A stretch of 64,000 nucleotides of DNA from Eledone cirrhosa (lineage: Eukaryota), in the NCBI GenBank assembly GCA_964016885.1, contig OZ024742.1, positions 362,266,001 to 362,330,000 of the forward strand, in the 5' to 3' direction. The position numbers and the translations under genes are program-made. The notes under the pieces were generated by a model. That model had not been told where the DNA came from, searched no databases, and worked only from the letters and a program-made list of their open reading frames with translations. Positions 31,723 through 54,109 of the stretch are shown here, one piece after another; the stretch's first letter is position 1, and the number at the start of each line of letters is the position of its first letter.

Positions 31723-31775
31723 CTCTCTCTATATATATATATATACATATATATATGTATATTTATATATTTATA

Positions 31776-31860
<85 letters not shown>

Positions 31861-31871
<11 letters not shown>

Positions 31872-34800
31872 AATATAGACATAGAATATTCGAAAATATT
31901 CTGTATGTTTATAATAAACATTTTGAAGACCTAATCGCTATAGAATAGAATACGTCACGTATTACAATTAGATTCTCGATAAAAGCAAGGGAAGTAATCT
32001 ACGCGTTTCATTCTCGTTAGAAATCATCAGGACTACATATCCAGTGCTTTTATCGAGAATGACACAGCTAGAGACTTATAGAATACTTAGCTGTGTACAG
32101 GAACTGGTTTGAAAGAGCGGTTGCCGGTCCGGCAGAAATTAGAAATTGGAATAAATGCTCTGAAATAGCGATATATATGTGAATATAGACATAGAATATT
32201 CGAAAATATTCTGTATGTTTATAATAAACATTTTGAAGACCTAATCGCTATAGAATAGAATACGTCACGTATTACAATTAGATTCTCGATAAAAGCAAGG
32301 GAAGTAATCTACGCGTTTCATTCTCGTTAGAAATCATCAGGACTACATATCCAGTGCTTTTATCGAGAATGACACAGCTAGAGACTTATAGAATACTTAG
32401 CTGTGTACAGGAACTGGTTTGAAAGAGCGGTTGCCGGTCCGGCAGAAATTAGAAATTGGAATAAATGCTCTGAAATAGCGATATATATGTGAATATAGAC
32501 ATAGAATATTCGAAAATATTCTGTATGTTTATAATAAACATTTTGAAGACCTAATCGCTATAGAATAGAATACGTCACGTATTACAATTAGATTCTCGAT
32601 AAAAGCAAGGGAAGTAATCTACGCGTTTCATTCTCGTTAGAAATCATCAGGACTACATATCCAGTGCTTTTATCGAGAATGACACAGCTAGAGACTTATA
32701 GAATACTTAGCTGTGTACAGGAACTGGTTTGAAAGAGCGGTTGCCGGTCCGGCAGAAATTAGAAATTGGAATAAATGCTCTGAAATAGCGATATATATGT
32801 GAATATAGACATAGAATATTCGAAAATATTCTGTATGTTTATAATAAACATTTTGAAGACCTAATCGCTATAGAATAGAATACGTCACGTATTACAATTA
32901 GATTCTCGATAAAAGCAAGGGAAGTAATCTACGCGTTTCATTCTCGTTAGAAATCATCAGGACTACATATCCAGTGCTTTTATCGAGAATGACACAGCTA
33001 GAGACTTATAGAATACTTAGCTGTGTACAGGAACTGGTTTGAAAGAGCGGTTGCCGGTCCGGCAGAAATTAGAAATTGGAATAAATGCTCTGAAATAGCG
33101 ATATATATGTGAATATAGACATAGAATATTCGAAAATATTCTGTATGTTTATAATAAACATTTTGAAGACCTAATCGCTATAGAATAGAATTCTATAGCG
33201 TATTCTATTCTATAGCGATTAGGTCTTCAAAATGTTTATTATAAACATACAGAATATTTTCGAATATTCTATGTCTATATTCACATATATATCGCTATTT
33301 CAGAGCATTTATTCCAATTTCTAATTTCTGCCGGACCGGCAACCGCTCTTTCAAACCAGTTCCTGTACACAGCTAAGTATTCTATAAGTCTCTAGCTGTG
33401 TCATTCTCGATAAAAGCACTGGATATGTAGTCCTGATGATTTCTAACGAGAATGAAACGCGTAGATTACTTCCCTTGCTTTTATCGAGAATCTAATTGTA
33501 ATACGTGACGTATTCTATTCTATAGCGATTAGGTCTTCAAAATGTTTATTATAAACATACAGAATATTTTCGAATATTCTATGTCTATATTCACATATAT
33601 ATCGCTATTTCAGAGCATTTATTCCAATTTCTAATTTCTGCCGGACCGGCAACCGCTCTTTCAAACCAGTTCCTGTACACAGCTAAGTATTCTATAAGTC
33701 TCTAGCTGTGTCATTCTCGATAAAAGCACTGGATATGTAGTCCTGATGATTTCTAACGAGAATGAAACGCGTAGATTACTTCCCTTGCTTTTATCGAGAA
33801 TCTAATTGTAATACGTGACGTATTCTATTCTATAGCGATTAGGTCTTCAAAATGTTTATTATAAACATACAGAATATTTTCGAATATTCTATGTCTATAT
33901 TCACATATATATCGCTATTTCAGAGCATTTATTCCAATTTCTAATTTCTGCCGGACCGGCAACCGCTCTTTCAAACCAGTTCCTGTACACAGCTAAGTAT
34001 TCTATAAGTCTCTAGCTGTGTCATTCTCGATAAAAGCACTGGATATGTAGTCCTGATGATTTCTAACGAGAATGAAACGCGTAGATTACTTCCCTTGCTT
34101 TTATCGAGAATCTAATTGTAATACGTGACGTATTCTATTCTATAGCGATTAGGTCTTCAAAATGTTTATTATAAACATACAGAATATTTTCGAATATTCT
34201 ATGTCTATATTCACATATATATCGCTATTTCAGAGCATTTATTCCAATTTCTAATTTCTGCCGGACCGGCAACCGCTCTTTCAAACCAGTTCCTGTACAC
34301 AGCTAAGTATTCTATAAGTCTCTAGCTGTGTCATTCTCGATAAAAGCACTGGATATGTAGTCCTGATGATTTCTAACGAGAATGAAACGCGTAGATTACT
34401 TCCCTTGCTTTTATCGAGAATCTAATTGTAATACGTGACGTATTCTATTCTATAGCGATTAGGTCTTCAAAATGTTTATTATAAACATACAGAATATTTT
34501 CGAATATTCTATGTCTATATTCACATATATATCGCTATTTCAGAGCATTTATTCCAATTTCTAATTTCTGCCGGACCGGCAACCGCTCTTTCAAACCAGT
34601 TCCTGTACACAGCTAAGTATTCTATAAGTCTCTAGCTGTGTCATTCTCGATAAAAGCACTGGATATGTAGTCCTGATGATTTCTAACGAGAATGAAACGC
34701 GTAGATTACTTCCCTTGCTTTTATCGAGAATCTAATTGTAATACGTGACGTATTCTATTCTATAGCGATTAGGTCTTCAAAATGTTTATTATAAACATAC

Positions 34801-37800
34801 AGAATATTTTCGAATATTCTATGTCTATATTCACATATATATCGCTATTTCAGAGCATTTATTCCAATTTCTAATTTCTGCCGGACCGGCAACCGCTCTT
34901 TCAAACCAGTTCCTGTACACAGCTAAGTATTCTATAAGTCTCTAGCTGTGTCATTCTCGATAAAAGCACTGGATATGTAGTCCTGATGATTTCTAACGAG
35001 AATGAAACGCGTAGATTACTTCCCTTGCTTTTATCGAGAATCTAATTGTAATACGTGACGTATTCTATTCTATAGCGATTAGGTCTTCAAAATGTTTATT
35101 ATAAACATACAGAATATTTTCGAATATTCTATGTCTATATTCACATATATATCGCTATTTCAGAGCATTTATTCCAATTTCTAATTTCTGCCGGACCGGC
35201 AACCGCTCTTTCAAACCAGTTCCTGTACACAGCTAAGTATTCTATAAGTCTCTAGCTGTGTCATTCTCGATAAAAGCACTGGATATGTAGTCCTGATGAT
35301 TTCTAACGAGAATGAAACGCGTAGATTACTTCCCTTGCTTTTATCGAGAATCTAATTGTAATACGTGACGTATTCTATTCTATAGCGATTAGGTCTTCAA
35401 AATGTTTATTATAAACATAGAGAATATTTTCGAATATTCTATGTCTATATTCACATATATATCGCTATTTCAGAGCATTTATTCCAATTTCTAATTTCTG
35501 CCGGACCGGCAACCGCTCTTTCAAACCAGTTCCTGTACACAGCTAAGTATTCTATAAGTCTCTAGCTGTGTCATTCTCGATAAAAGCACTGGATATGTAG
35601 TCCTGATGATTTCTAACGAGAATGAAACGCGTAGATTACTTCCCTTGCTTTTATCGAGAATCTAATTGTAATACGTGACGTATTCTATTCTATAGCGATT
35701 AGGTCTTCAAAATGTTTATTATAAACATACAGAATATTTTCGAATATTCTATGTCTATATTCACATATATATCGCTATTTCAGAGCATTTATTCCAATTT
35801 CTAATTTCTGCCGGACCGGCAACCGCTCTTTCAAACCAGTTCCTGTACACAGCTAAGTATTCTATAAGTCTCTAGCTGTGTCATTCTCGATAAAAGCACT
35901 GGATATGTAGTCCTGATGATTTCTAACGAGAATGAAACGCGTAGATTACTTCCCTTGCTTTTATCGAGAATCTAATTGTAATACGTGACGTATTCTATTC
36001 TATAGCGATTAGGTCTTCAAAATGTTTATTATAAACATACAGAATATTTTCGAATATTCTATGTCTATATTCACATATATATCGCTATTTCAGAGCATTT
36101 ATTCCAATTTCTAATTTCTGCCGGACCGGCAACCGCTCTTTCAAACCAGTTCCTGTACACAGCTAAGTATTCTATAAGTCTCTAGCTGTGTCATTCTCGA
36201 TAAAAGCACTGGATATGTAGTCCTGATGATTTCTAACGAGAATGAAACGCGTAGATTACTTCCCTTGCTTTTATCGAGAATCTAATTGTAATACGTGACG
36301 TATTCTATTCTATAGCGATTAGGTCTTCAAAATGTTTATTATAAACATACAGAATATTTTCGAATATTCTATGTCTATATTCACATATATATCGCTATTT
36401 CAGAGCATTTATTCCAATTTCTAATTTCTGCCGGACCGGCAACCGCTCTTTCAAACCAGTTCCTGTACACAGCTAAGTATTCTATAAGTCTCTAGCTGTG
36501 TCATTCTCGATAAAAGCACTGGATATGTAGTCCTGATGATTTCTAACGAGAATGAAACGCGTAGATTACTTCCCTTGCTTTTATCGAGAATCTAATTGTA
36601 ATACGTGACGTATTCTATTCTATAGCGATTAGGTCTTCAAAATGTTTATTATAAACATACAGAATATTTTCGAATATTCTATGTCTATATTCACATATAT
36701 ATCGCTATTTCAGAGCATTTATTCCAATTTCTAATTTCTGCCGGACCGGCAACCGCTCTTTCAAACCAGTTCCTGTACACAGCTAAGTATTCTATAAGTC
36801 TCTAGCTGTGTCATTCTCGATAAAAGCACTGGATATGTAGTCCTGATGATTTCTAACGAGAATGAAACGCGTAGATTACTTCCCTTGCTTTTATCGAGAA
36901 TCTAATTGTAATACGTGACGTATTCTATTCTATAGCGATTAGGTCTTCAAAATGTTTATTATAAACATACAGAATATTTTCGAATATTCTATGTCTATAT
37001 TCACATATATATCGCTATTTCAGAGCATTTATTCCAATTTCTAATTTCTGCCGGACCGGCAACCGCTCTTTCAAACCAGTTCCTGTACACAGCTAAGTAT
37101 TCTATAAGTCTCTAGCTGTGTCATTCTCGATAAAAGCACTGGATATGTAGTCCTGATGATTTCTAACGAGAATGAAACGCGTAGATTACTTCCCTTGCTT
37201 TTATCGAGAATCTAATTGTAATACGTGACGTATTCTATTCTATAGCGATTAGGTCTTCAAAATGTTTATTATAAACATACAGAATATTTTCGAATATTCT
37301 ATGTCTATATTCACATATATATCGCTATTTCAGAGCATTTATTCCAATTTCTAATTTCTGCCGGACCGGCAACCGCTCTTTCAAACCAGTTCCTGTACAC
37401 AGCTAAGTATTCTATAAGTCTCTAGCTGTGTCATTCTCGATAAAAGCACTGGATATGTAGTCCTGATGATTTCTAACGAGAATGAAACGCGTAGATTACT
37501 TCCCTTGCTTTTATCGAGAATCTAATTGTAATACGTGACGTATTCTATTCTATAGCGATTAGGTCTTCAAAATGTTTATTATAAACATACAGAATATTTT
37601 CGAATATTCTATGTCTATATTCACATATATATCGCTATTTCAGAGCATTTATTCCAATTTCTAATTTCTGCCGGACCGGCAACCGCTCTTTCAAACCAGT
37701 TCCTGTACACAGCTAAGTATTCTATAAGTCTCTAGCTGTGTCATTCTCGATAAAAGCACTGGATATGTAGTCCTGATGATTTCTAACGAGAATGAAACGC

Positions 37801-40800
37801 GTAGATTACTTCCCTTGCTTTTATCGAGAATCTAATTGTAATACGTGACGTATTCTATTCTATAGCGATTAGGTCTTCAAAATGTTTATTATAAACATAC
37901 AGAATATTTTCGAATATTCTATGTCTATATTCACATATATATCGCTATTTCAGAGCATTTATTCCAATTTCTAATTTCTGCCGGACCGGCAACCGCTCTT
38001 TCAAACCAGTTCCTGTACACAGCTAAGTATTCTATAAGTCTCTAGCTGTGTCATTCTCGATAAAAGCACTGGATATGTAGTCCTGATGATTTCTAACGAG
38101 AATGAAACGCGTAGATTACTTCCCTTGCTTTTATCGAGAATCTAATTGTAATACGTGACGTATTCTATTCTATAGCGATTAGGTCTTCAAAATGTTTATT
38201 ATAAACATACAGAATATTTTCGAATATTCTATGTCTATATTCACATATATATCGCTATTTCAGAGCATTTATTCCAATTTCTAATTTCTGCCGGACCGGC
38301 AACCGCTCTTTCAAACCAGTTCCTGTACACAGCTAAGTATTCTATAAGTCTCTAGCTGTGTCATTCTCGATAAAAGCACTGGATATGTAGTCCTGATGAT
38401 TTCTAACGAGAATGAAACGCGTAGATTACTTCCCTTGCTTTTATCGAGAATCTAATTGTAATACGTGACGTATTCTATTCTATAGCGATTAGGTCTTCAA
38501 AATGTTTATTATAAACATACAGAATATTTTCGAATATTCTATGTCTATATTCACATATATATCGCTATTTCAGAGCATTTATTCCAATTTCTAATTTCTG
38601 CCGGACCGGCAACCGCTCTTTCAAACCAGTTCCTGTACACAGCTAAGTATTCTATAAGTCTCTAGCTGTGTCATTCTCGATAAAAGCACTGGATATGTAG
38701 TCCTGATGATTTCTAACGAGAATGAAACGCGTAGATTACTTCCCTTGCTTTTATCGAGAATCTAATTGTAATACGTGACGTATTCTATTCTATAGCGATT
38801 AGGTCTTCAAAATGTTTATTATAAACATACAGAATATTTTCGAATATTCTATGTCTATATTCACATATATATCGCTATTTCAGAGCATTTATTCCAATTT
38901 CTAATTTCTGCCGGACCGGCAACCGCTCTTTCAAACCAGTTCCTGTACACAGCTAAGTATTCTATAAGTCTCTAGCTGTGTCATTCTCGATAAAAGCACT
39001 GGATATGTAGTCCTGATGATTTCTAACGAGAATGAAACGCGTAGATTACTTCCCTTGCTTTTATCGAGAATCTAATTGTAATACGTGACGTATTCTATTC
39101 TATAGCGATTAGGTCTTCAAAATGTTTATTATAAACATACAGAATATTTTCGAATATTCTATGTCTATATTCACATATATATCGCTATTTCAGAGCATTT
39201 ATTCCAATTTCTAATTTCTGCCGGACCGGCAACCGCTCTTTCAAACCAGTTCCTGTACACAGCTAAGTATTCTATAAGTCTCTAGCTGTGTCATTCTCGA
39301 TAAAAGCACTGGATATGTAGTCCTGATGATTTCTAACGAGAATGAAACGCGTAGATTACTTCCCTTGCTTTTATCGAGAATCTAATTGTAATACGTGACG
39401 TATTCTATTCTATAGCGATTAGGTCTTCAAAATGTTTATTATAAACATACAGAATATTTTCGAATATTCTATGTCTATATTCACATATATATCGCTATTT
39501 CAGAGCATTTATTCCAATTTCTAATTTCTGCCGGACCGGCAACCGCTCTTTCAAACCAGTTCCTGTACACAGCTAAGTATTCTATAAGTCTCTAGCTGTG
39601 TCATTCTCGATAAAAGCACTGGATATGTAGTCCTGATGATTTCTAACGAGAATGAAACGCGTAGATTACTTCCCTTGCTTTTATCGAGAATCTAATTGTA
39701 ATACGTGACGTATTCTATTCTATAGCGATTAGGTCTTCAAAATGTTTATTATAAACATACAGAATATTTTCGAATATTCTATGTCTATATTCACATATAT
39801 ATCGCTATTTCAGAGCATTTATTCCAATTTCTAATTTCTGCCGGACCGGCAACCGCTCTTTCAAACCAGTTCCTGTACACAGCTAAGTATTCTATAAGTC
39901 TCTAGCTGTGTCATTCTCGATAAAAGCACTGGATATGTAGTCCTGATGATTTCTAACGAGAATGAAACGCGTAGATTACTTCCCTTGCTTTTATCGAGAA
40001 TCTAATTGTAATACGTGACGTATTCTATTCTATAGCGATTAGGTCTTCAAAATGTTTATTATAAACATACAGAATATTTTCGAATATTCTATGTCTATAT
40101 TCACATATATATCGCTATTTCAGAGCATTTATTCCAATTTCTAATTTCTGCCGGACCGGCAACCGCTCTTTCAAACCAGTTCCTGTACACAGCTAAGTAT
40201 TCTATAAGTCTCTAGCTGTGTCATTCTCGATAAAAGCACTGGATATGTAGTCCTGATGATTTCTAACGAGAATGAAACGCGTAGATTACTTCCCTTGCTT
40301 TTATCGAGAATCTAATTGTAATACGTGACGTATTCTATTCTATAGCGATTAGGTCTTCAAAATGTTTATTATAAACATACAGAATATTTTCGAATATTCT
40401 ATGTCTATATTCACATATATATCGCTATTTCAGAGCATTTATTCCAATTTCTAATTTCTGCCGGACCGGCAACCGCTCTTTCAAACCAGTTCCTGTACAC
40501 AGCTAAGTATTCTATAAGTCTCTAGCTGTGTCATTCTCGATAAAAGCACTGGATATGTAGTCCTGATGATTTCTAACGAGAATGAAACGCGTAGATTACT
40601 TCCCTTGCTTTTATCGAGAATCTAATTGTAATACGTGACGTATTCTATTCTATAGCGATTAGGTCTTCAAAATGTTTATTATAAACATACAGAATATTTT
40701 CGAATATTCTATGTCTATATTCACATATATATCGCTATTTCAGAGCATTTATTCCAATTTCTAATTTCTGCCGGACCGGCAACCGCTCTTTCAAACCAGT

Positions 40801-43800
40801 TCCTGTACACAGCTAAGTATTCTATAAGTCTCTAGCTGTGTCATTCTCGATAAAAGCACTGGATATGTAGTCCTGATGATTTCTAACGAGAATGAAACGC
40901 GTAGATTACTTCCCTTGCTTTTATCGAGAATCTAATTGTAATACGTGACGTATTCTATTCTATAGCGATTAGGTCTTCAAAATGTTTATTATAAACATAC
41001 AGAATATTTTCGAATATTCTATGTCTATATTCACATATATATCGCTATTTCAGAGCATTTATTCCAATTTCTAATTTCTGCCGGACCGGCAACCGCTCTT
41101 TCAAACCAGTTCCTGTACACAGCTAAGTATTCTATAAGTCTCTAGCTGTGTCATTCTCGATAAAAGCACTGGATATGTAGTCCTGATGATTTCTAACGAG
41201 AATGAAACGCGTAGATTACTTCCCTTGCTTTTATCGAGAATCTAATTGTAATACGTGACGTATTCTATTCTATAGCGATTAGGTCTTCAAAATGTTTATT
41301 ATAAACATACAGAATATTTTCGAATATTCTATGTCTATATTCACATATATATCGCTATTTCAGAGCATTTATTCCAATTTCTAATTTCTGCCGGACCGGC
41401 AACCGCTCTTTCAAACCAGTTCCTGTACACAGCTAAGTATTCCATAAGTCTCTAGCTGTGTCATTCTCGATAAAAGCACTGGATATGTAGTCCTGATGAT
41501 TTCTAACGAGAATGAAACGCGTAGATTACTTCCCTTGCTTTTATCGAGAATCTAATTGTAATACGTGACGTATTCTATTCTATAGCGATTAGGTCTTCAA
41601 AATGTTTATTATAAACATACAGAATATTTTCGAATATTCTATGTCTATATTCACATATATATCGCTATTTCAGAGCATTTATTCCAATTTCTAATTTCTG
41701 CCGGACCGGCAACCGCTCTTTCAAACCAGTTCCTGTACACAGCTAAGTATTCTATAAGTCTCTAGCTGTGTCATTCTCGATAAAAGCACTGGATATGTAG
41801 TCCTGATGATTTCTAACGAGAATGAAACGCGTAGATTACTTCCCTTGCTTTTATCGAGAATCTAATTGTAATACGTGACGTATTCTATTCTATAGCGATT
41901 AGGTCTTCAAAATGTTTATTATAAACATACAGAATATTTTCGAATATTCTATGTCTATATTCACATATATATCGCTATTTCAGAGCATTTATTCCAATTT
42001 CTAATTTCTGCCGGACCGGCAACCGCTCTTTCAAACCAGTTCCTGTACACAGCTAAGTATTCTATAAGTCTCTAGCTGTGTCATTCTCGATAAAAGCACT
42101 GGATATGTAGTCCTGATGATTTCTAACGAGAATGAAACGCGTAGATTACTTCCCTTGCTTTTATCGAGAATCTAATTGTAATACGTGACGTATTCTATTC
42201 TATAGCGATTAGGTCTTCAAAATGTTTATTATAAACATACAGAATATTTTCGAATATTCTATGTCTATATTCACATATATATCGCTATTTCAGAGCATTT
42301 ATTCCAATTTCTAATTTCTGCCGGACCGGCAACCGCTCTTTCAAACCAGTTCCTGTACACAGCTAAGTATTCTATAAGTCTCTAGCTGTGTCATTCTCGA
42401 TAAAAGCACTGGATATGTAGTCCTGATGATTTCTAACGAGAATGAAACGCGTAGATTACTTCCCTTGCTTTTATCGAGAATCTAATTGTAATACGTGACG
42501 TATTCTATTCTATAGCGATTAGGTCTTCAAAATGTTTATTATAAACATACAGAATATTTTCGAATATTCTATGTCTATATTCACATATATATCGCTATTT
42601 CAGAGCATTTATTCCAATTTCTAATTTCTGCCGGACCGGCAACCGCTCTTTCAAACCAGTTCCTGTACACAGCTAAGTATTCTATAAGTCTCTAGCTGTG
42701 TCATTCTCGATAAAAGCACTGGATATGTAGTCCTGATGATTTCTAACGAGAATGAAACGCGTAGATTACTTCCCTTGCTTTTATCGAGAATCTAATTGTA
42801 ATACGTGACGTATTCTATTCTATAGCGATTAGGTCTTCAAAATGTTTATTATAAACATACAGAATATTTTCGAATATTCTATGTCTATATTCACATATAT
42901 ATCGCTATTTCAGAGCATTTATTCCAATTTCTAATTTCTGCCGGACCGGCAACCGCTCTTTCAAACCAGTTCCTGTACACAGCTAAGTATTCTATAAGTC
43001 TCTAGCTGTGTCATTCTCGATAAAAGCACTGGATATGTAGTCCTGATGATTTCTAACGAGAATGAAACGCGTAGATTACTTCCCTTGCTTTTATCGAGAA
43101 TCTAATTGTAATACGTGACGTATTCTATTCTATAGCGATTAGGTCTTCAAAATGTTTATTATAAACATACAGAATATTTTCGAATATTCTATGTCTATAT
43201 TCACATATATATCGCTATTTCAGAGCATTTATTCCAATTTCTAATTTCTGCCGGACCGGCAACCGCTCTTTCAAACCAGTTCCTGTACACAGCTAAGTAT
43301 TCTATAAGTCTCTAGCTGTGTCATTCTCGATAAAAGCACTGGATATGTAGTCCTGATGATTTCTAACGAGAATGAAACGCGTAGATTACTTCCCTTGCTT
43401 TTATCGAGAATCTAATTGTAATACGTGACGTATTCTATTCTATAGCAATTAGGTCTTCAAAATGTTTATTATAAACATACAGAATATTTTCGAATATTCT
43501 ATGTCTATATTCACATATATATCGCTATTTCAGAGCATTTATTCCAATTTCTAATTTCTGCCGGACCGGCAACCGCTCTTTCAAACCAGTTCCTGTACAC
43601 AGCTAAGTATTCTATAAGTCTCTAGCTGTGTCATTCTCGATAAAAGCACTGGATATGTAGTCCTGATGATTTCTAACGAGAATGAAACGCGTAGATTACT
43701 TCCCTTGCTTTTATCGAGAATCTAATTGTAATACGTGACGTATTCTATTCTATAGCGATTAGGTCTTCAAAATGTTTATTATAAACATACAGAATATTTT

Positions 43801-44793
43801 CGAATATTCTATGTCTATATTCACATATATATCGCTATTTCAGAGCATTTATTCCAATTTCTAATTTCTGCCGGACCGGCAACCGCTCTTTCAAACCAGT
43901 TCCTGTACACAGCTAAGTATTCTATAAGTCTCTAGCTGTGTCATTCTCGATAAAAGCACTGGATATGTAGTCCTGATGATTTCTAACGAGAATGAAACGC
44001 GTAGATTACTTCCCTTGCTTTTATCGAGAATCTAATTGTAATACGTGACGTATTCTATTCTATAGCGATTAGGTCTTCAAAATGTTTATTATAAACATAC
44101 AGAATATTTTCGAATATTCTATGTCTATATTCACATATATATCGCTATTTCAGAGCATTTATTCCAATTTCTAATTTCTGCCGGACCGGCAACCGCTCTT
44201 TCAAACCAGTTCCTGTACACAGCTAAGTATTCTATAAGTCTCTAGCTGTGTCATTCTCTATAAAAGCACTGGATATGTAGTCCTGATGATTTCTAACGAG
44301 AATGAAACGCGTAGATTACTTCCCTTGCTTTTATCGAGAATCTAATTGTAATACGTGACGTATTCTATTCTATAGCGATTAGGTCTTCAAAATGTTTATT
44401 ATAAACATACAGAATATTTTCGAATATTCTATGACTATATTCACATATATATCGCTATTTCAGAGCATTTATTCCAATTTCTAATTTCTGCCGGACCGGC
44501 AACCGCTCTTTCAAACCAGTTCCTGTACACAGCTAAGTATTCTATAAGTCTCTAGCTGTGTCATTCTCGATAAAAGCACTGGATATGTAGTCCTGATGAT
44601 TTCTAACGAGAATGAAACGCGTAGATTACTTCCCTTGCTTTTATCGAGAATCTAATTGTAATACGTGACGTATTCTATTCTATAGCGATTAGGTCTTCAA
44701 AATGTTTATTATAAACATACAGAATATTTTCGAATATTCTATGTCTATATTCACATATATATCGCTATTTCAGAGCATTTATTCCAATTTCTA
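31861..44793. repeat. 310-bp tandem array (about 41.6 units) of a hammerhead-bearing unit; candidate non-LTR retrozyme
   Basis: Exact 310-bp period; minus-oriented block 31861-33190 (about 4.3 units), plus-oriented block 33199-44793 (about 37.4 units); (TA)n on both sides; no ORF. Confidence 0.95.
33403..33491 (+). ncRNA. Type I hammerhead ribozyme (first of 37 plus-strand copies; 4 more on the minus strand)
   Basis: Stem I gtagtc/gattac, CTGATGA 33433-33439, stem II ttct-aacg-agaa, GAAA 33454-33457, palindromic stem III ACGCGT, GUA cleavage after 33463; 16-bp outer stem attctcgataaaagca/tgcttttatcgagaat. Confidence 0.88.
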
Positions 44794-44808
44794 TATATAT
44801 ATATATAT

Positions 44809-44952
<144 letters not shown>

Positions 44953-45037
44953 ATAAAAAAAATGAATAAAAAGAATAAAAAGAACAAACAAAAAGATTAA
45001 CACACTAAAATACTGCCAACAGCAACACACACTTTCG

Positions 45038-46890
45038 ATGGCTATCACCTTGCTTGAGTTAAAAAAATATAACCTCCAGCAATGCATGATGACCATCATC
45101 AATAACCAGAGAATAGCTGAAGAGAGCTGGGCCATTGAGAAAATCAAACTCAACCCCAAAGTGTTCTTTTCATTTGCTAAAAAACACAAGGTCAGCGTCT
45201 CCACTGTTGGCCCCGTAGTTGATGACAATGGCACACTCCAAGACAATGCCAAAACCATGGGCGAGATACTGCAGAAACAATACTGCTCTGTTTTCAGCAA
45301 TCCTGATATGGCCGATCTGGGCCGTACCAGTGATGTTAATTTCTCCACACACTATATCAGACATAACGTTTGGCGCCCCTGATGCCTTAGCGGCAATAAA
45401 AGAAATTAAACACAATTCAGCAGTAGGCCCCGATGGGTTCCCTGCTTGTGTCCTGAAGGTGTGTCGACACCAACTTGCATCTCCTCTGGTTAATCTGTGG
45501 AGGAACTCACTGGACTCTGGCTATATTCCTGAAAACTTTCTGTCCCAGTCCATTGTCCCAGTCTTCAAAAAGGGAAATAAGTCCCTTGCAGTGAACTACC
45601 ATCCGATCTCACTCACCTCTCATATTATCAAGGTATTTGAGAGGGTGATGAGATCACGAATAACTCACTTTCTTGAAAGCAACGGTCTGCTGAACTCCAA
45701 CCAACATGGGTTCCGTAATGGAAGGGACTGCGTAACGCAGCTCCTGCATCACTTTGACGATGTTTTGAGAGCCTTGGGAGAGGGCTCCAACACTGATGTC
45801 ATCTACCTTGATTTCAGCAAGGCCTTCGACAGGGTTGATCATGAGATTCTACTGAAAAAACTATCCAATGTTGGTGTCTCTGGAAGGTTACTACAGTGGA
45901 TCAAATGTTTCCTGACACGCAGAACCCAGCATGTTGTAGTTGAAGGAGTAAAATCAAGCCCTGCCAAAGTCAGCAGTGGCGTCCCACATGGTACTGTGTT
46001 GGGCCCACTTCTTTTCATCATCTACATTAATGACATTACTGACATCATCAAGCACAGCAACATCAGAATCTTCGCAGACGATTCCAAGCTCCAAAGGGTC
46101 ATCAATGAAGTGGGTGACCGGACTTGCCCTCAGTCAGACCTACTGGCTGTTATCCAATGGGCAGAAATGAATAATATGCTGTTGAATTAATCCACTTTGG
46201 AAAAATTTGAATTAATCCACTTTGGAAAAAAGGATGCCCTGAAACTACCATACTCTCTTCTTTCAGGTGAAACTCTAGTGGCATCCAATAACATCAGAGA
46301 CCCGAGAGTAATTGTGGACAACGACATAAGCTGGGCCACTCATATAAACAGCAAAGTTGATATGGCCCGCAGAATGTGTCCCTGGATTCTTAGAACTTTC
46401 CAGTCGAGAGATATCCACACTGTTATCCTTCTCTTCTCCACTTTTGCCCGACCCCACCTTGGATACTGTTGTCCACTGTGGTCACTCCACACGAAACAAA
46501 GTATTATGAAAGTTGAAGCACCCCAAAGTTCAATTACAAAAAAGATAGATGGCATGACAGGCCTTGACTATCGTAGTCGATTAGAAAAGCTGAAACTTTA
46601 TTCTCTCCACCGTCGCTGTGAGCGCTACATTATCTGTATGGTGTGGAAAATATTCCATCAGCTTTGCCCAAATGATGTTGGCATCACCTTTAGTGTACAC
46701 CCAAGGCTTGGGCCCCGTGCTATCCGCCACAACAAAAATCCCACTCGCATCACATAACAACAATACGGCACAATTATTTCACCTCAATTGGCCCTGCACT
46801 CTTTAACATTACACCAAGACACGTCAAAGCAGAGACAGACCCCATCACGTTCAAGAAGTCTTTGGATAAATTCCTTCAAGAAATCCCGGT
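45038..46890 (+). pseudogene. CR1-clade LINE ORF2 (RT) remnant
   Basis: NYHPISLTS, NQHGFR, YLDFSKAFDRVDH, SGVPHGTVLGP, IFADDSKL, RLEKLKLYSL, FKKSLDKFL; frameshifts and a 25-bp duplication at 46183-46230. Confidence 0.9.
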
Positions 46891-52789: not shown

Positions 52790-54109
52790 AACATATCTAT
52801 CCCTCATCTACTACCGCCTGACCGTAGTGCCCTGCCCAAGGGAAACCCTCACCAAGATGGAGCGCGCGCTCTTCCAATTCCTTTGGAAGAGGCGGGCTCC
52901 TATGGTGAGGAGATCCATCTGCTGTCAACATCCTTCGAAAGGAGGGCTGGGGATGCCGTGGCTAATGATGCGTAAACACGCATTAAGGCTACGGCACCTC
53001 TACGTATTCCTCACCGGACAACCGGTGTGGGCCTCGTTTGTGAGACGAACCTTTCCCAGACTCGTCTCACTCACCGAGCTGCAATCCTGGGTCAAGCAAA
53101 GACCGAGAAAACTGGGCGCCTGGCACACTGAGTGTGCCCAGGCGCTCACCGCCCTCTGACAGGCGGATCCGGTTATCAGTGGAGACTCCACCGCAACATT
53201 CTATAGAGGGCTGGTACGCAGCAGGTGCGACGACGCCCTCGGAGAAGCCCTAGACATGGAGGAGGACGAACTGGCCAGCCTGTTCGGTAGGACATTCAGC
53301 CCGGGACCTATGGACAACTTCCAGAAGTCCCTGGCCTGGCAGTGCTACCGAGGGGCTTTACCCGTTCGAGAAAGGCTCTACAGACACGGGCGCCCGGGTA
53401 GGGACCCCGCCAAAAAGATCTGTCCCAGATGCGTGTGCGACGAGGAAACCGTTGCACACGCATTGGTACACTGCTCGGGCGTAGCCGATCTGTGGGGCTA
53501 TGTCGAACAACTGCTGTCAAGGGTGGGACCGATCCGGTTGACCACCGAGTCTATTGTAATGATCAAGCCGCCTCCCCCCTTCAAAGATGAAGCAGAGGCG
53601 GTGTTTCTGTGCGTAATAGCCATAGCGAAAGAGGTTGTATGGTGGACGCGTCTGAAAGGACTGAGGTCAGGCACCTTTCTCTCTGGCCAACAACTGGTCC
53701 GTTTCTTCCGATATCATTTCGGAAGAAGGATCAGGATGGAGAGAGAGGTGCTGCACCCCAGCCGTTTCTATGAAAGATGGGTGAAAGTGGCGAGAATGGC
53801 CCGTGTGAATGGGCCTTCACTCTACATCAGACTATAGGTGAGGAAGATGAAAGACCAAGGGAGCACCCCTTCTCTGTGCTCCTGAGGAGAAGGGTTGCAC
53901 ACTTTTTTCGGGGGTGTGTGCGACCCCCCAAGGCGCCTCCTCTCTATTGAGGATTTTGTTATAAATTTTATTTTTTGTTATATCTTATTTTATTTTTATA
54001 TTTTGTTATTGCCTCCTCCTTATTGAGGACGCCTTTTTGTGTAAACTCCCCCCTTTGTACTTGTCCCACTTTTGATGCCCTAGTGGCAAATAAAAGAAAC
54101 ATATCTATC
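52790..54109 (+). mobile_element. Tx1/L1-clade LINE 3' fragment with 12-bp target-site duplication
   Basis: FQFLW..KGGLGMP, WQCYRGALPV..CPRC..ETVAHALVHC (zf-RVT knuckle), one in-frame stop at 53157-53159; AATAAA at 54089; TSD AACATATCTATC at 52790-52801 and 54098-54109. Confidence 0.88.

What the first reader, a model, noticed from the sequence alone, without database searches (positions are those of the whole stretch)
44753..44793. Array ends have PLE geometry: (TA)n target, common terminus and a 31-nt one-sided tail
Seen: the inverted block ends at the unit's internal ...TCACATATATAT, fused to genomic (TA)n at 31861. The forward block runs 31 nt past that point (cgctatttcagagcatttattccaatttcta) before joining (TA)n. 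Established: PLE insertions often show an inverted 5' pLTR and a short 3' extension on one copy. Inference: the array was integrated by PLE machinery, with the internal (AT)4 annealing to the target.
Basis: partly seen in the sequence, partly recalled or inferred. Interest (0 to 1): 0.75.

Follow-up and report, generated by a model that had tools for sequence, protein, structure and literature searches.

The report
Ribozyme repeat arrays inserted Penelope-style
A 13-kb array of a 310-base repeat carrying a hammerhead-ribozyme motif sits in a TA microsatellite with the same two fixed ends as many other arrays of its genome, a pattern that likely means each array was copied in from RNA in one event by the enzymes of a Penelope-like retrotransposon.

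Summary
The window holds 4.3 inverted plus 37.4 forward copies of a 310-bp unit. The inverted block ends at the unit's ...TTCAC(AT)4. The forward block ends 31 nt further on. Both ends abut (TA)n.

The genome holds at least 16,487 units.
- Of 80 unique arrays picked by one end, 71 are head-to-head double blocks. Each has one "long" end (unit 303-312) and one "short" end (unit 259-279). None has two alike.
- Eight arrays are single 5'-truncated blocks, and one abuts a gap.
- Both blocks of an array carry the same private variants.
- Five insertions at sites where duplication is visible have target-site duplications of about 6-15 bp.

The unit carries a type-I hammerhead-like core, so it is an animal non-LTR retrozyme.

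- The usual long end is 305 (1004 places), not 310 (75 places).
- The usual short boundary is C269, which gives a tail of about 36 nt.
- Non-TA targets use the same short-end window with little microhomology, so (AT)4 annealing alone does not set it.

Target-primed reverse transcription from both ends of the break is well supported. That a Penelope-like enzyme does it is inferred: no partner element and no RNA data were found.

The parts
31730..31860 (.). Left flanking (TA)n microsatellite, imperfect, about 130 bp. Taken to be one half of the target.
   Evidence: TRF period 2, 69.5 copies, 31730-31868; its last 8 nt are shared with the unit.
31861..33191 (-). Inverted (antisense) block, 4.3 units. 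Its outer end is the short end S (unit 271-279) and its inner end is at unit 189.
31861..31868 (.). (AT)4 that could belong to either the unit (272-279) or the target microsatellite. This is the microhomology zone of the short end.
33192..33198. 7-nt filler, TCTATAG, at the head-to-head junction. With the next base it copies unit 196-203.
33199..44793 (+). Forward (ribozyme-sense) block, 37.4 units. Its inner end is at unit 186 and its outer end is the long end L at unit 310.
44763..44793 (+). The 31-nt one-sided 'tail' (unit 280-310), present only at the forward block's end.
44794..44810 (.). Right flanking (TA)n, 17 nt, followed by (TC)55, (TA)n and (TG)n.
44587..44629 (+). Type-I hammerhead-like motif of the last unit (one per unit). 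It reads GUAGUC / CUGAUGA / U-UUCU-AACG-AGAA-U / GAAA / C-GC-G / UA|G / AUUAC. The predicted cut is between 44623 and 44624 (unit A140|G141).
   Evidence: Read from the sequence. Rfam Hammerhead_HH9 gives 15.8 bits, E 0.081, at 44578-44643, below the gathering score of 52. Variants between arrays spare the core.
44489..44501 (+). G+C hairpin (unit 6-18) just 3' of the long-end start window. In the predicted circular fold the flanking stretch, unit 294-310 plus 1-5, is unpaired.
   Evidence: ViennaRNA circular MFE; a prediction only.

Best explanation
The array is a non-coding 310-nt hammerhead-bearing repeat (an animal non-LTR retrozyme) that was likely inserted as a ready-made array in one event of target-primed reverse transcription, predicted to be carried out by the reverse transcriptase and endonuclease of a Penelope-like element.

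Shown directly:
- The arrays have fixed outer ends and variable inner junctions.
- In every double-block array both outer ends are the 3' side of the ribozyme-sense unit.
- Every double-block array pairs one long end (unit 303-312, mostly 305) with one short end (unit 259-279, mostly with its boundary at C269).
- The two blocks of an array share the same private variants.
- Target-site duplications of about 6-15 bp flank insertions where the target lets them be seen.

Inferred:
- A staggered break, mostly in (TA)n, leaves two 3' overhangs.
- One overhang primes cDNA in the open 303-312 window and the other primes about 26-46 nt upstream, on ribozyme-sense RNA of a single sequence.
- Both cDNAs run through many unit lengths, either round a circle or along a homogeneous multimer.
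- Their 3' ends are then joined at an arbitrary unit position with 0-7 nt of overlap or a short filler.
- The one-sided 'tail' is the distance between the two priming sites.
For: - Recurrent termini (exact patterns): 1004 places for ...TTATTCCAAT+(AT)n, 75 for ...CCAATTTCTA+(TA)n, and 497 for ...TTCAC(AT)4+(AT)n. The reversed-pattern control gave 0 matches each time.
- Independent insertions: sequence beyond the TA runs differs from locus to locus.
- The unselected far end: of 80 unique arrays (90 picked loci, 10 duplicates), 71 are double blocks with one L and one S end, 0 are L+L, 0 are S+S, 8 are single blocks and 1 abuts an N gap. For 6 of the 71 the far end rests on coordinate pairing only.
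- A census not picked by ends: the 18 arrays on C1:1-36.04 Mb listed by an internal 30-mer comprise 14 double blocks, all L+S, and 4 single blocks.
- Inner junction positions spread over the whole unit.
- One template per array: the inverted and forward consensus are identical in 32 of 35 arrays, including arrays with 3-7 private variants. Between arrays the median is 3 differences. Within a block the median pairwise difference is 0.
- The end type (305 or 310) is not lineage-bound.
- Target-site duplications: 15 bp in L199, 10-12 and 9-11 bp in L200 and L203, 6-12 and about 10-12 bp in L208 and L210.
- The TA association is far above background: every one of 49 arrays has a pure TA run of at least 8 nt at both ends, against 4.7-11.8% background cover.
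- The control for non-TA 305 ends gave 37 matches: 14 internal variants and 23 short TA or AT-rich flanks.
- PLEs are abundant in this genome: 10,596 GIY-YIG candidates, and all 150 that were scored passed the cut-off. One family ends ...CTGTTTTCA+(TA)n at 1199 places, and 9 of its 29 unique loci have an inverted upstream copy.
- Three copies of two related repeat families show the same L+S layout.
- Literature passages.
Against: - No autonomous element sharing the unit's 3' module was found among the 20 GIY-YIG-picked loci.
- The abundant (TA)n-targeting PLE has an unrelated 3' end, and I saw no CUGAUGA core in the about 470 bases of its 3' end that I read (no scan of the whole copy was run).
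- That PLE's inverted copies mostly end at the same terminus as the forward copy. Outer ends were 0, 0, 0, 0, -3, -22 and -30 in the 7 resolved cases, so its geometry is not identical to the repeat's strict L+S rule.
- LINE-type enzymes also give target-site duplications and twin-primed inversions (recalled), and a LINE-like RT fragment lies beside the array.
- The hammerhead scores far below Rfam's threshold and has a U-U pair at positions 10.1/11.1.
- No RNA data and no empty-site allele were seen, so single-event birth rests on sequence identity and end geometry.
Confidence: 0.7

Rival explanations
1. The same target-primed, twin-primed integration takes place, but a non-PLE reverse transcriptase (a LINE with an AP- or REL-type endonuclease and a taste for TA-rich DNA) carries it out, so the resemblance to PLE insertions is convergent.
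For: Target-site duplications of about 6-15 bp and an inverted 5' block are also what L1 twin priming gives (recalled; not read here). A LINE-like RVT_1 ORF fragment lies at window 45219-46757, beside the array. No PLE with the unit's 3' module was found.
Against: The combination of tandem copies, an inverted copy, a one-sided tail of 26-46 nt and a (TA)n target is what Craig et al. [quoted passage not shown] A real PLE family in this genome targets (TA)n at 1199 places and has inverted copies in 9 of 29 loci. The unit carries the hammerhead type linked with PLEs.
Confidence: 0.12
2. The arrays arise at the DNA level. Extrachromosomal circular or rolling-circle DNA copies of the repeat are captured at breaks in fragile (TA)n tracts by microhomology-mediated end joining.
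For: (TA)n tracts are break-prone (general knowledge). The short end has (AT)4 microhomology. Inner junctions show short overlaps or fillers, as end joining gives. The 2026 preprint's abstract mentions 'rolling-circle transposition'.
Against: Capture of circular DNA would give permuted ends, but the far ends fall within two windows covering about 10% of the unit in 71 of 71 double-block arrays. Both outer ends are always the 3' side of the ribozyme-sense strand. Target-site duplications of about 6-15 bp point to staggered nicks that were filled in. The long end uses only 0-3 nt of microhomology.
Confidence: 0.08
3. A single unit or dimer is inserted first. The array and its inverted part then grow locally by unequal crossing-over, replication slippage and inversion. 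This is the satellite-birth model discussed by Li, Clavereau and Pollet 2026.
For: It is the standard model for satellite expansion (discussion section read). Unit number varies widely between arrays.
Against: The model does not predict that 71 of 71 double-block arrays have exactly one L and one S outer end. It does not predict the absence of the opposite (tail-to-tail) order. It does not predict identical private variants in both orientations in 32 of 35 arrays. It does not predict target-site duplications bracketing the whole double block.
Confidence: 0.05
4. The head-to-head structure of the window's array is an assembly artefact of a long, nearly identical repeat.
For: 37 near-identical units are hard to assemble. 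One related locus abuts a run of N (L040). My read check gave no test.
Against: The same architecture, with unique junctions and different flanks, recurs on many chromosomes, including arrays only 217-700 bp long that any read would span.
Confidence: 0.03

Closest known systems
Animal non-LTR retrozymes (Cervera and de la Pena 2020, PMC7229834; review PMC7761336; Li, Clavereau and Pollet 2026 preprint 10.64898/2026.07.22.740005)
   Same: Tandem, non-coding, low-GC (34.5%) repeat of a few hundred bases. Each unit has one type-I hammerhead with a 6-bp helix I, a 4-bp helix II and a 2-bp helix III closed by a palindromic loop. It coexists with PLEs. The published model has RNA circles copied into tandem cDNA.
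   Different: In the passages and sections I read, those papers give no array termini, no (TA)n target, no inverted block and no tail. [quoted passage not shown] Here the ends supply such a signature. Circular RNA was not tested here.
Insertion architecture of Penelope-like elements (Craig et al. 2021, PMC8557442)
   Same: A (TA)n microsatellite target, 5' truncation, head-to-tail copies, an adjacent inverted 5'-truncated copy, and an extension of 30-40 bp at one end only.
   Different: The unit encodes no RT or endonuclease. The inverted block is nearly obligatory (71 of 79 resolved arrays, against 9 of 29 for a resident PLE family). The L+S pairing is strict. No sequence is shared with any PLE 3' end examined.
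Twin priming of human L1
   Same: Both 3' ends of a staggered break prime on one RNA. The result is an inverted 5' part, a forward 3' part, a junction with microhomology, and a target-site duplication around the whole.
   Different: In L1 it affects a minority of insertions, and the second primer anneals anywhere along a linear mRNA. Here the second site is fixed about 26-46 nt upstream of the first, and both cDNAs span many unit lengths.
Non-autonomous Chlamys elements such as MRC1 (Craig et al. 2021, passage)
   Same: Non-coding passengers of PLEs that give pseudo-LTRs and multicopy head-to-tail insertions.
   Different: They share 3' ends with their autonomous partners and carry no hammerhead. 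They are found in green algae.

Membership tests
Animal non-LTR retrozyme | Tandem head-to-tail repeats of about 150-400 bp, dispersed over many loci | tested here: met
   310-bp period. At least 16,487 units. More than 1,000 array ends on many contigs.
Animal non-LTR retrozyme | One type-I hammerhead ribozyme motif per unit, with an intact catalytic core | tested here: inconclusive
   All core letters and helices I to III can be read. Rfam HH9 gives only 15.8 bits, E 0.081, against a gathering score of 52, and positions 10.1/11.1 form a U-U pair. The seven recurrent or pair-relevant variants in the motif (T114A, T117A, C124T, G125A, A106G, G107A, A142G) spare the core or keep pairs. Cleavage was not assayed.
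Animal non-LTR retrozyme | Non-coding and low in GC | tested here: met
   GC is 34.5%. The longest stop-free stretch in a tetramer is 59 aa.
Animal non-LTR retrozyme | Expressed as small circular RNA | not testable with these tools
   No RNA run was listed as a holder, which is not evidence either way.
PLE-type insertion (a non-autonomous passenger of a Penelope-like element) | Microsatellite target, (TA)n in several clades | tested here: met
   Both ends of 49 of 49 measured arrays lie in TA runs of at least 8 nt.
PLE-type insertion (a non-autonomous passenger of a Penelope-like element) | Adjacent inverted 5'-truncated copy | tested here: met
   71 of 79 resolved unique arrays. 14 of 18 in the census not picked by ends.
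PLE-type insertion (a non-autonomous passenger of a Penelope-like element) | 30-40 bp extension (tail) at one end only | tested here: met
   The long end minus the short end is 26-46 nt, with a mode of 36 (305 minus 269). It is 31 nt in the window.
PLE-type insertion (a non-autonomous passenger of a Penelope-like element) | Sequence shared with the 3' end or pseudo-LTR of an autonomous PLE in the same genome | tested here: not met
   Sensitive BLAST of the unit against 20 GIY-YIG-picked loci found only other non-coding relatives of the unit. This sample is 20 of 10,596 candidates, so the test is weak.
PLE-type insertion (a non-autonomous passenger of a Penelope-like element) | Mobilised by a PLE RT with a GIY-YIG endonuclease | not testable with these tools
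   This needs a retrotransposition assay.
Twin-primed target-primed reverse transcription | A target-site duplication bracketing an inverted-plus-forward insertion, with both outer ends on the RNA-3' side | tested here: met
   L199, L200, L203, L208 and L210. The orientation rule held in all double blocks.

The most novel reading that the evidence does not exclude
Both 3' ends of one staggered break prime on a single unit-length circular retrozyme RNA, at two fixed sites about 36 nt apart. Rolling-circle reverse transcription from the two primers then builds the whole head-to-head array in one event. On this reading the strict 'one long end, one short end' rule arises because a circle offers each site only once. 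The long-puzzling one-sided 'tail' of Penelope-like insertions would then be the footprint between the two priming sites of the integration complex.
Probability: 0.35. Interest if true: 0.8.

Novelty: new member of a known kind. Interest (0 to 1): 0.62.

Why it matters
How animal retrozymes move is an open question. The 2020 review says their sequence gives no clue to the mobilising element. The 2026 preprint calls for work on mobilisation mechanisms and favours local amplification of arrays.

This family offers a natural experiment of more than a thousand young insertions. They have base-precise ends, target-site duplications, and the hallmark geometry of Penelope-like insertions.

The data support three points:
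- Arrays are born as arrays, from one template sequence.
- Both ends of the break act as primers.
- The PLE 'tail' reflects two priming sites on the template.

Each point can be tested directly with a donor construct and a PLE ORF from this genome.

Tried and rejected
- Own-genome DNA search with the whole unit found nothing, because common words are skipped. I replaced it with exact junction patterns.
- Rfam at gathering threshold over the array, and at E<=10 over 701 nt, gave no hammerhead. Only an 81-nt search space gave a sub-threshold HH9 match.
- The look-up of sequencing runs listed 20 holders under 18 coded organism labels and no RNA holder. This is no evidence on expression.
- Read laying on the inversion junction gave no test. 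The two raw Hi-C runs laid 0 reads. The two contig runs held only a 340-nt cyclic unit contig.
- The search for the autonomous partner failed. Twenty loci picked by GIY-YIG, eight of them with long ORFs, showed no unit-like 3' end. The hits were separate related repeats. One array lying 2.5 kb from a PLE fragment turned out to be separate insertions into one TA tract.
- I considered whether the long end is inherited from read-through transcripts of parent arrays. This is rejected because the same unit haplotypes carry both 305 and 310 ends.
- I considered snap-back (hairpin) synthesis for the inverted block. Inner positions of the two blocks differ by 10 nt or less in only 8 of 49 arrays, the window's included (my count from the rows). 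It may therefore explain a minority at most.
- I considered two independent insertions into one microsatellite. This is rejected because the inner junctions lack (TA)n and the L+S pairing is strict.
- The pattern for short ends at non-TA flanks gave 16 places. I fetched 8: 3 were inner junctions or internal variants, not ends.
- earlier-findings look-ups by place and by sequence returned nothing.

Full report
**1. The observation**

The window holds a tandem repeat with a 310-bp period. There are 4.3 copies at 31861-33191 and 37.4 copies at 33199-44793, in opposite orientation and 99-100% identical. 32 of the 37 whole forward units equal the last unit, and the other 5 differ at 1-2 sites.

The left outer end reads (TA)n-ATATATAT-GTGAATATAG. 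This is the reverse complement of the unit's ...CTATATTCAC(AT)4. I number the unit from window 44484 (= 1) to 44793 (= 310), which places this end at unit 271-279. The right outer end continues 31 nt beyond that (AT)4, through 44763-44793, and then meets TATATA....

The blocks meet head to head at unit positions 189 and 186, with a 7-nt filler.

**2. What the unit is**

The unit is 34.5% G+C and has no open frame longer than 59 aa, even across a tetramer.

Each unit carries GUAGUC-CUGAUGA-U-UUCU-AACG-AGAA-U-GAAA-C-GC-G-UA|G-AUUAC at unit 104-146. This gives a 6-bp helix I, a 4-bp helix II and a 2-bp helix III closed by a 2-nt loop, within the palindrome ACGCGU. That is the layout Cervera and de la Pena 2014 describe for most metazoan type-I hammerheads, which act as dimers in tandem repeats (PMC4209133, passages).

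Rfam finds nothing at its own threshold. Searching only 81 nt gives Hammerhead_HH9 at 15.8 bits, E 0.081, against a gathering score of 52. The alignment agrees with my reading and flags a U-U pair at 10.1/11.1.

Seven variants that distinguish arrays fall in the motif, and all are tolerated by the fold:
- position N7: T114A;
- loop 2: C124T and G125A;
- changes that preserve or create pairs: A106G, G107A, A142G, and T117A, which turns the U-U into A-U.

I therefore file the unit as an animal non-LTR retrozyme. The ribozyme's activity is untested.

**3. Do other copies share the termini?**

An internal 30-mer occurs 16,487 times in the 3.0-Gb genome. Exact junction patterns gave these counts, each with 0 matches for the reversed-pattern control:

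| Junction | Places |
|---|---|
| ...CCAATTTCTA + TATAT (unit 310, the window's form) | 75 |
| ...TTATTCCAAT + ATATATAT (unit 305) | 1004 |
| ...TTCAC(AT)4 + ATAT (unit 279) | 497 |

Beyond the TA runs the flanks differ from locus to locus, so these are separate insertions.

A control counted departures from the unit after position 305 whose ninth flank base is not A. It gave 37 places: 14 internal variants and 23 short TA or AT-rich flanks. (TA)>=4 covers 4.7% of the window outside the array and 11.8% of 119 kb picked by a protein domain.

**4. The unselected end**

I took 30 loci for each of the three patterns. Where an array ran off the locus I fetched up to 10 kb more. Ten loci were two ends of the same array, which leaves 80 unique arrays.

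- All 30 arrays picked by the 310 end have an inverted block whose outer end lies in unit 264-279.
- Of the 30 picked by the 305 end, 27 have the same structure, 1 has it with an extra small switch, and 2 are single 5'-truncated blocks.
- Of the 20 further arrays picked by the 279 end, 13 have an inverted block. Five of those end at 305, one at 307 and one at 310/312 by sequence. The other six rest on coordinate pairing with a 305 end. Six arrays are single blocks and one abuts a run of N.

In total, 71 arrays are double blocks with one long (L) and one short (S) end. None is L+L or S+S, and 8 are single blocks.

On C1 up to 277 Mb, 28 of 53 exact 279 ends pair head to head with an exact 305 or 310 end, at spans of 217-14,955 bp. 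No 279/279 or long/long convergent pair exists.

A census not picked by ends used the 18 arrays listed by the internal 30-mer on C1:1-36.04 Mb. It gives 14 double blocks, all L+S, and 4 single blocks. In that listing the antisense units always precede the sense units, so both outer ends are always the 3' side of the ribozyme-sense strand.

Inner junction positions are spread over the whole unit, with overlaps from -20 to +31 nt, mostly 0-7.

**5. One template per array**

The consensus of the inverted block equals that of the forward block in 32 of 35 arrays. This includes arrays with 3-7 private differences from the window's unit. Between arrays the median is 3 differences (5th-95th percentile 0-7). 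Within a block the median pairwise difference is 0.

The same unit haplotypes occur with both 305 and 310 ends. The long-end position is therefore chosen anew at each insertion, not inherited.

**6. Target-site duplications**

In pure (TA)n no duplication can be seen. Five arrays sit at sites where one can:

| Locus | Duplication |
|---|---|
| L199 | 15 bp, TATTTGTATTATTAT |
| L200 | 10-12 bp |
| L203 | 9-11 bp |
| L208 | 6-12 bp |
| L210 | about 10-12 bp |

In each case the duplication brackets the whole double block and touches the L end on one side and the S end on the other. This is what staggered nicks give when both 3' overhangs are extended on an RNA of ribozyme sense.

**7.

- The window's long end (310) is the minor form, and 305 is the rule. 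Positions 300, 303, 307 and 312 also occur.
- The short end is fuzzy. Of 49 arrays, 29 read ...ATAT-GAATATAG (first unit-specific base opposite C269), 13 read ...ATGT-GAATATAG as in the window, and 7 end a few bases further in.
- The modal tail is therefore 36 nt, against 31 nt in the window.
- In four of the five insertions with visible duplications (L199, L200, L203, L208) the short end still lies at unit 259-269, with only 1-6 nt of possible pairing. The (AT)4 may help, but it does not define the site.
- In the predicted circular fold, unit 294-310 plus 1-5 is unpaired, next to a G+C hairpin at unit 6-18 (a prediction only).

**8. Penelope-like elements in this genome**

A GIY-YIG search gave 10,596 first-look candidates. 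All 150 that were scored passed the curated cut-off, and some lie in open frames of 844-1096 aa.

One family has a Cys-rich linker before the GIY-YIG core. Its 3' end...CTGTTTTCA, meets (TA)n at 1199 places. Most copies are 5'-truncated, and 9 of 29 unique loci have an inverted upstream copy. The outer ends of the 7 resolved inverted copies lie 0, 0, 0, 0, 3, 22 and 30 nt short of the terminus.

A (TA)n-targeting PLE machinery with inverted copies therefore exists here. Its 3' end is unrelated to the unit, however, and its two ends are often equal.

Two related non-coding repeat families (in L132, L144 and L151) conserve the unit's terminal module and show the same L+S layout.

**9. What is in print**

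- Craig et al. 2021 list the PLE hallmarks used above and attribute the tail to endonuclease-mediated resolution.
- Cervera and de la Pena 2020 propose primed circular RNA copied into tandem cDNA and name PLEs as candidates.
- Their review says the repeats show no motif that reveals the mobilising element.
- Li, Clavereau and Pollet 2026 relate vertebrate retrozymes to PLE terminal repeats and discuss local amplification (abstract and discussion read).
- Keyword look-ups inside the three retrozyme papers (the preprint, the 2020 article and the review) for microsatellite, inverted, target site, tail and TSD found no account of array ends.
- Library searches for 'Penelope-like' with 'twin priming', and for retrozyme with target-primed, found none either.
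- I did not see the supplements.
- Two earlier notes of this scan describe tRNA-bearing tandem repeats with PLE-type ends in TA microsatellites of other genomes (unchecked).

**10. Mechanism**

The sequence shows fixed outer ends, variable inner ends, the polarity rule, one template per array, and target-site duplications.

From this I infer the following. A staggered break, mostly in (TA)n, is made. One 3' overhang starts cDNA in the 303-312 window, and the other starts about 26-46 nt upstream, on ribozyme-sense RNA. Both run through many unit lengths, and the two cDNA ends are then joined.

Whether the template is a unit-length circle or a homogeneous multimer is open. The strict L+S pairing is what one circle would give, since it offers each site only once. 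An intrinsic difference between the two DNA ends would give the same result.

The enzyme is inferred to be a PLE RT-endonuclease. A LINE enzyme, DNA-level capture, local amplification and misassembly are the rivals, and all fit the data less well (see the rival explanations).

Noticed in passing
window 44966-46757 (+): A LINE-like reverse-transcriptase fragment lies right after the microsatellite block that follows the array. It matches RVT_1 at E 1.6e-24, has one in-frame stop at 46188-46190, and has no start region.
   Followed up: partly
window 44812-44950: A compound microsatellite sits directly beside the array's right TA run: (TC)55, then (TA)n, then (TG)n.
   Followed up: no
L132:2420-2905; L144:270-725; L151 (reverse complement) 3913-4596: Two related non-coding repeat families are 75-86% identical to unit 199-310 and 1-42. 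They show the same long-end plus short-end head-to-head layout. In one family the ribozyme core reads UUGAUAA instead of CUGAUGA, so it is probably inactive.
   Followed up: partly
L151 (reverse complement) 5633-7370; L132:1-2440; 1199 places in G000: An abundant Penelope-like family has a C-terminal GIY-YIG domain preceded by a Cys-rich CxxxxCxxC linker. Its 3' end, ...CTGTTTTCA, abuts (TA)n. I saw no CUGAUGA core in the about 470 bases of its 3' end that I read.
   Followed up: partly
flanks of L024, L031/L062, L051, L116 and L156: Several arrays sit in the (TA)n that ends copies of another repeat (...CCCTCCCAAAGTATAACA + (AT)n). TA tails of other mobile elements therefore serve as landing sites.
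   Followed up: no
L151 (reverse complement) 4990-5330; flanks of L060, L153, L157 and L197: A fold-back (MITE-like) element of about 330 bp with long inverted arms (...AATGAAATAAATATGGTTTTATAAATA...) is itself bounded by TA runs. It recurs next to arrays.
   Followed up: no
window 6410-6997 (+) and 53160-53837 (+): One ORF has an STPR repeat domain (PF21107, E 1.4e-9). Another has a zf-RVT domain (PF13966, E 4e-6), which is a further retroelement fragment.
   Followed up: no
(runs X1-X20): Near-identical copies of the unit (57-89% of sampled 31-mers) are held by public runs filed under 18 different coded organism labels in 17 studies. The family is either widespread among related species or the animal is widely sampled.
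   Followed up: no
L036 and L198: Two single-block insertions span almost exactly one unit, from about unit 292-307 round to unit 279. This is what a single turn round a circular template would give.
   Followed up: no
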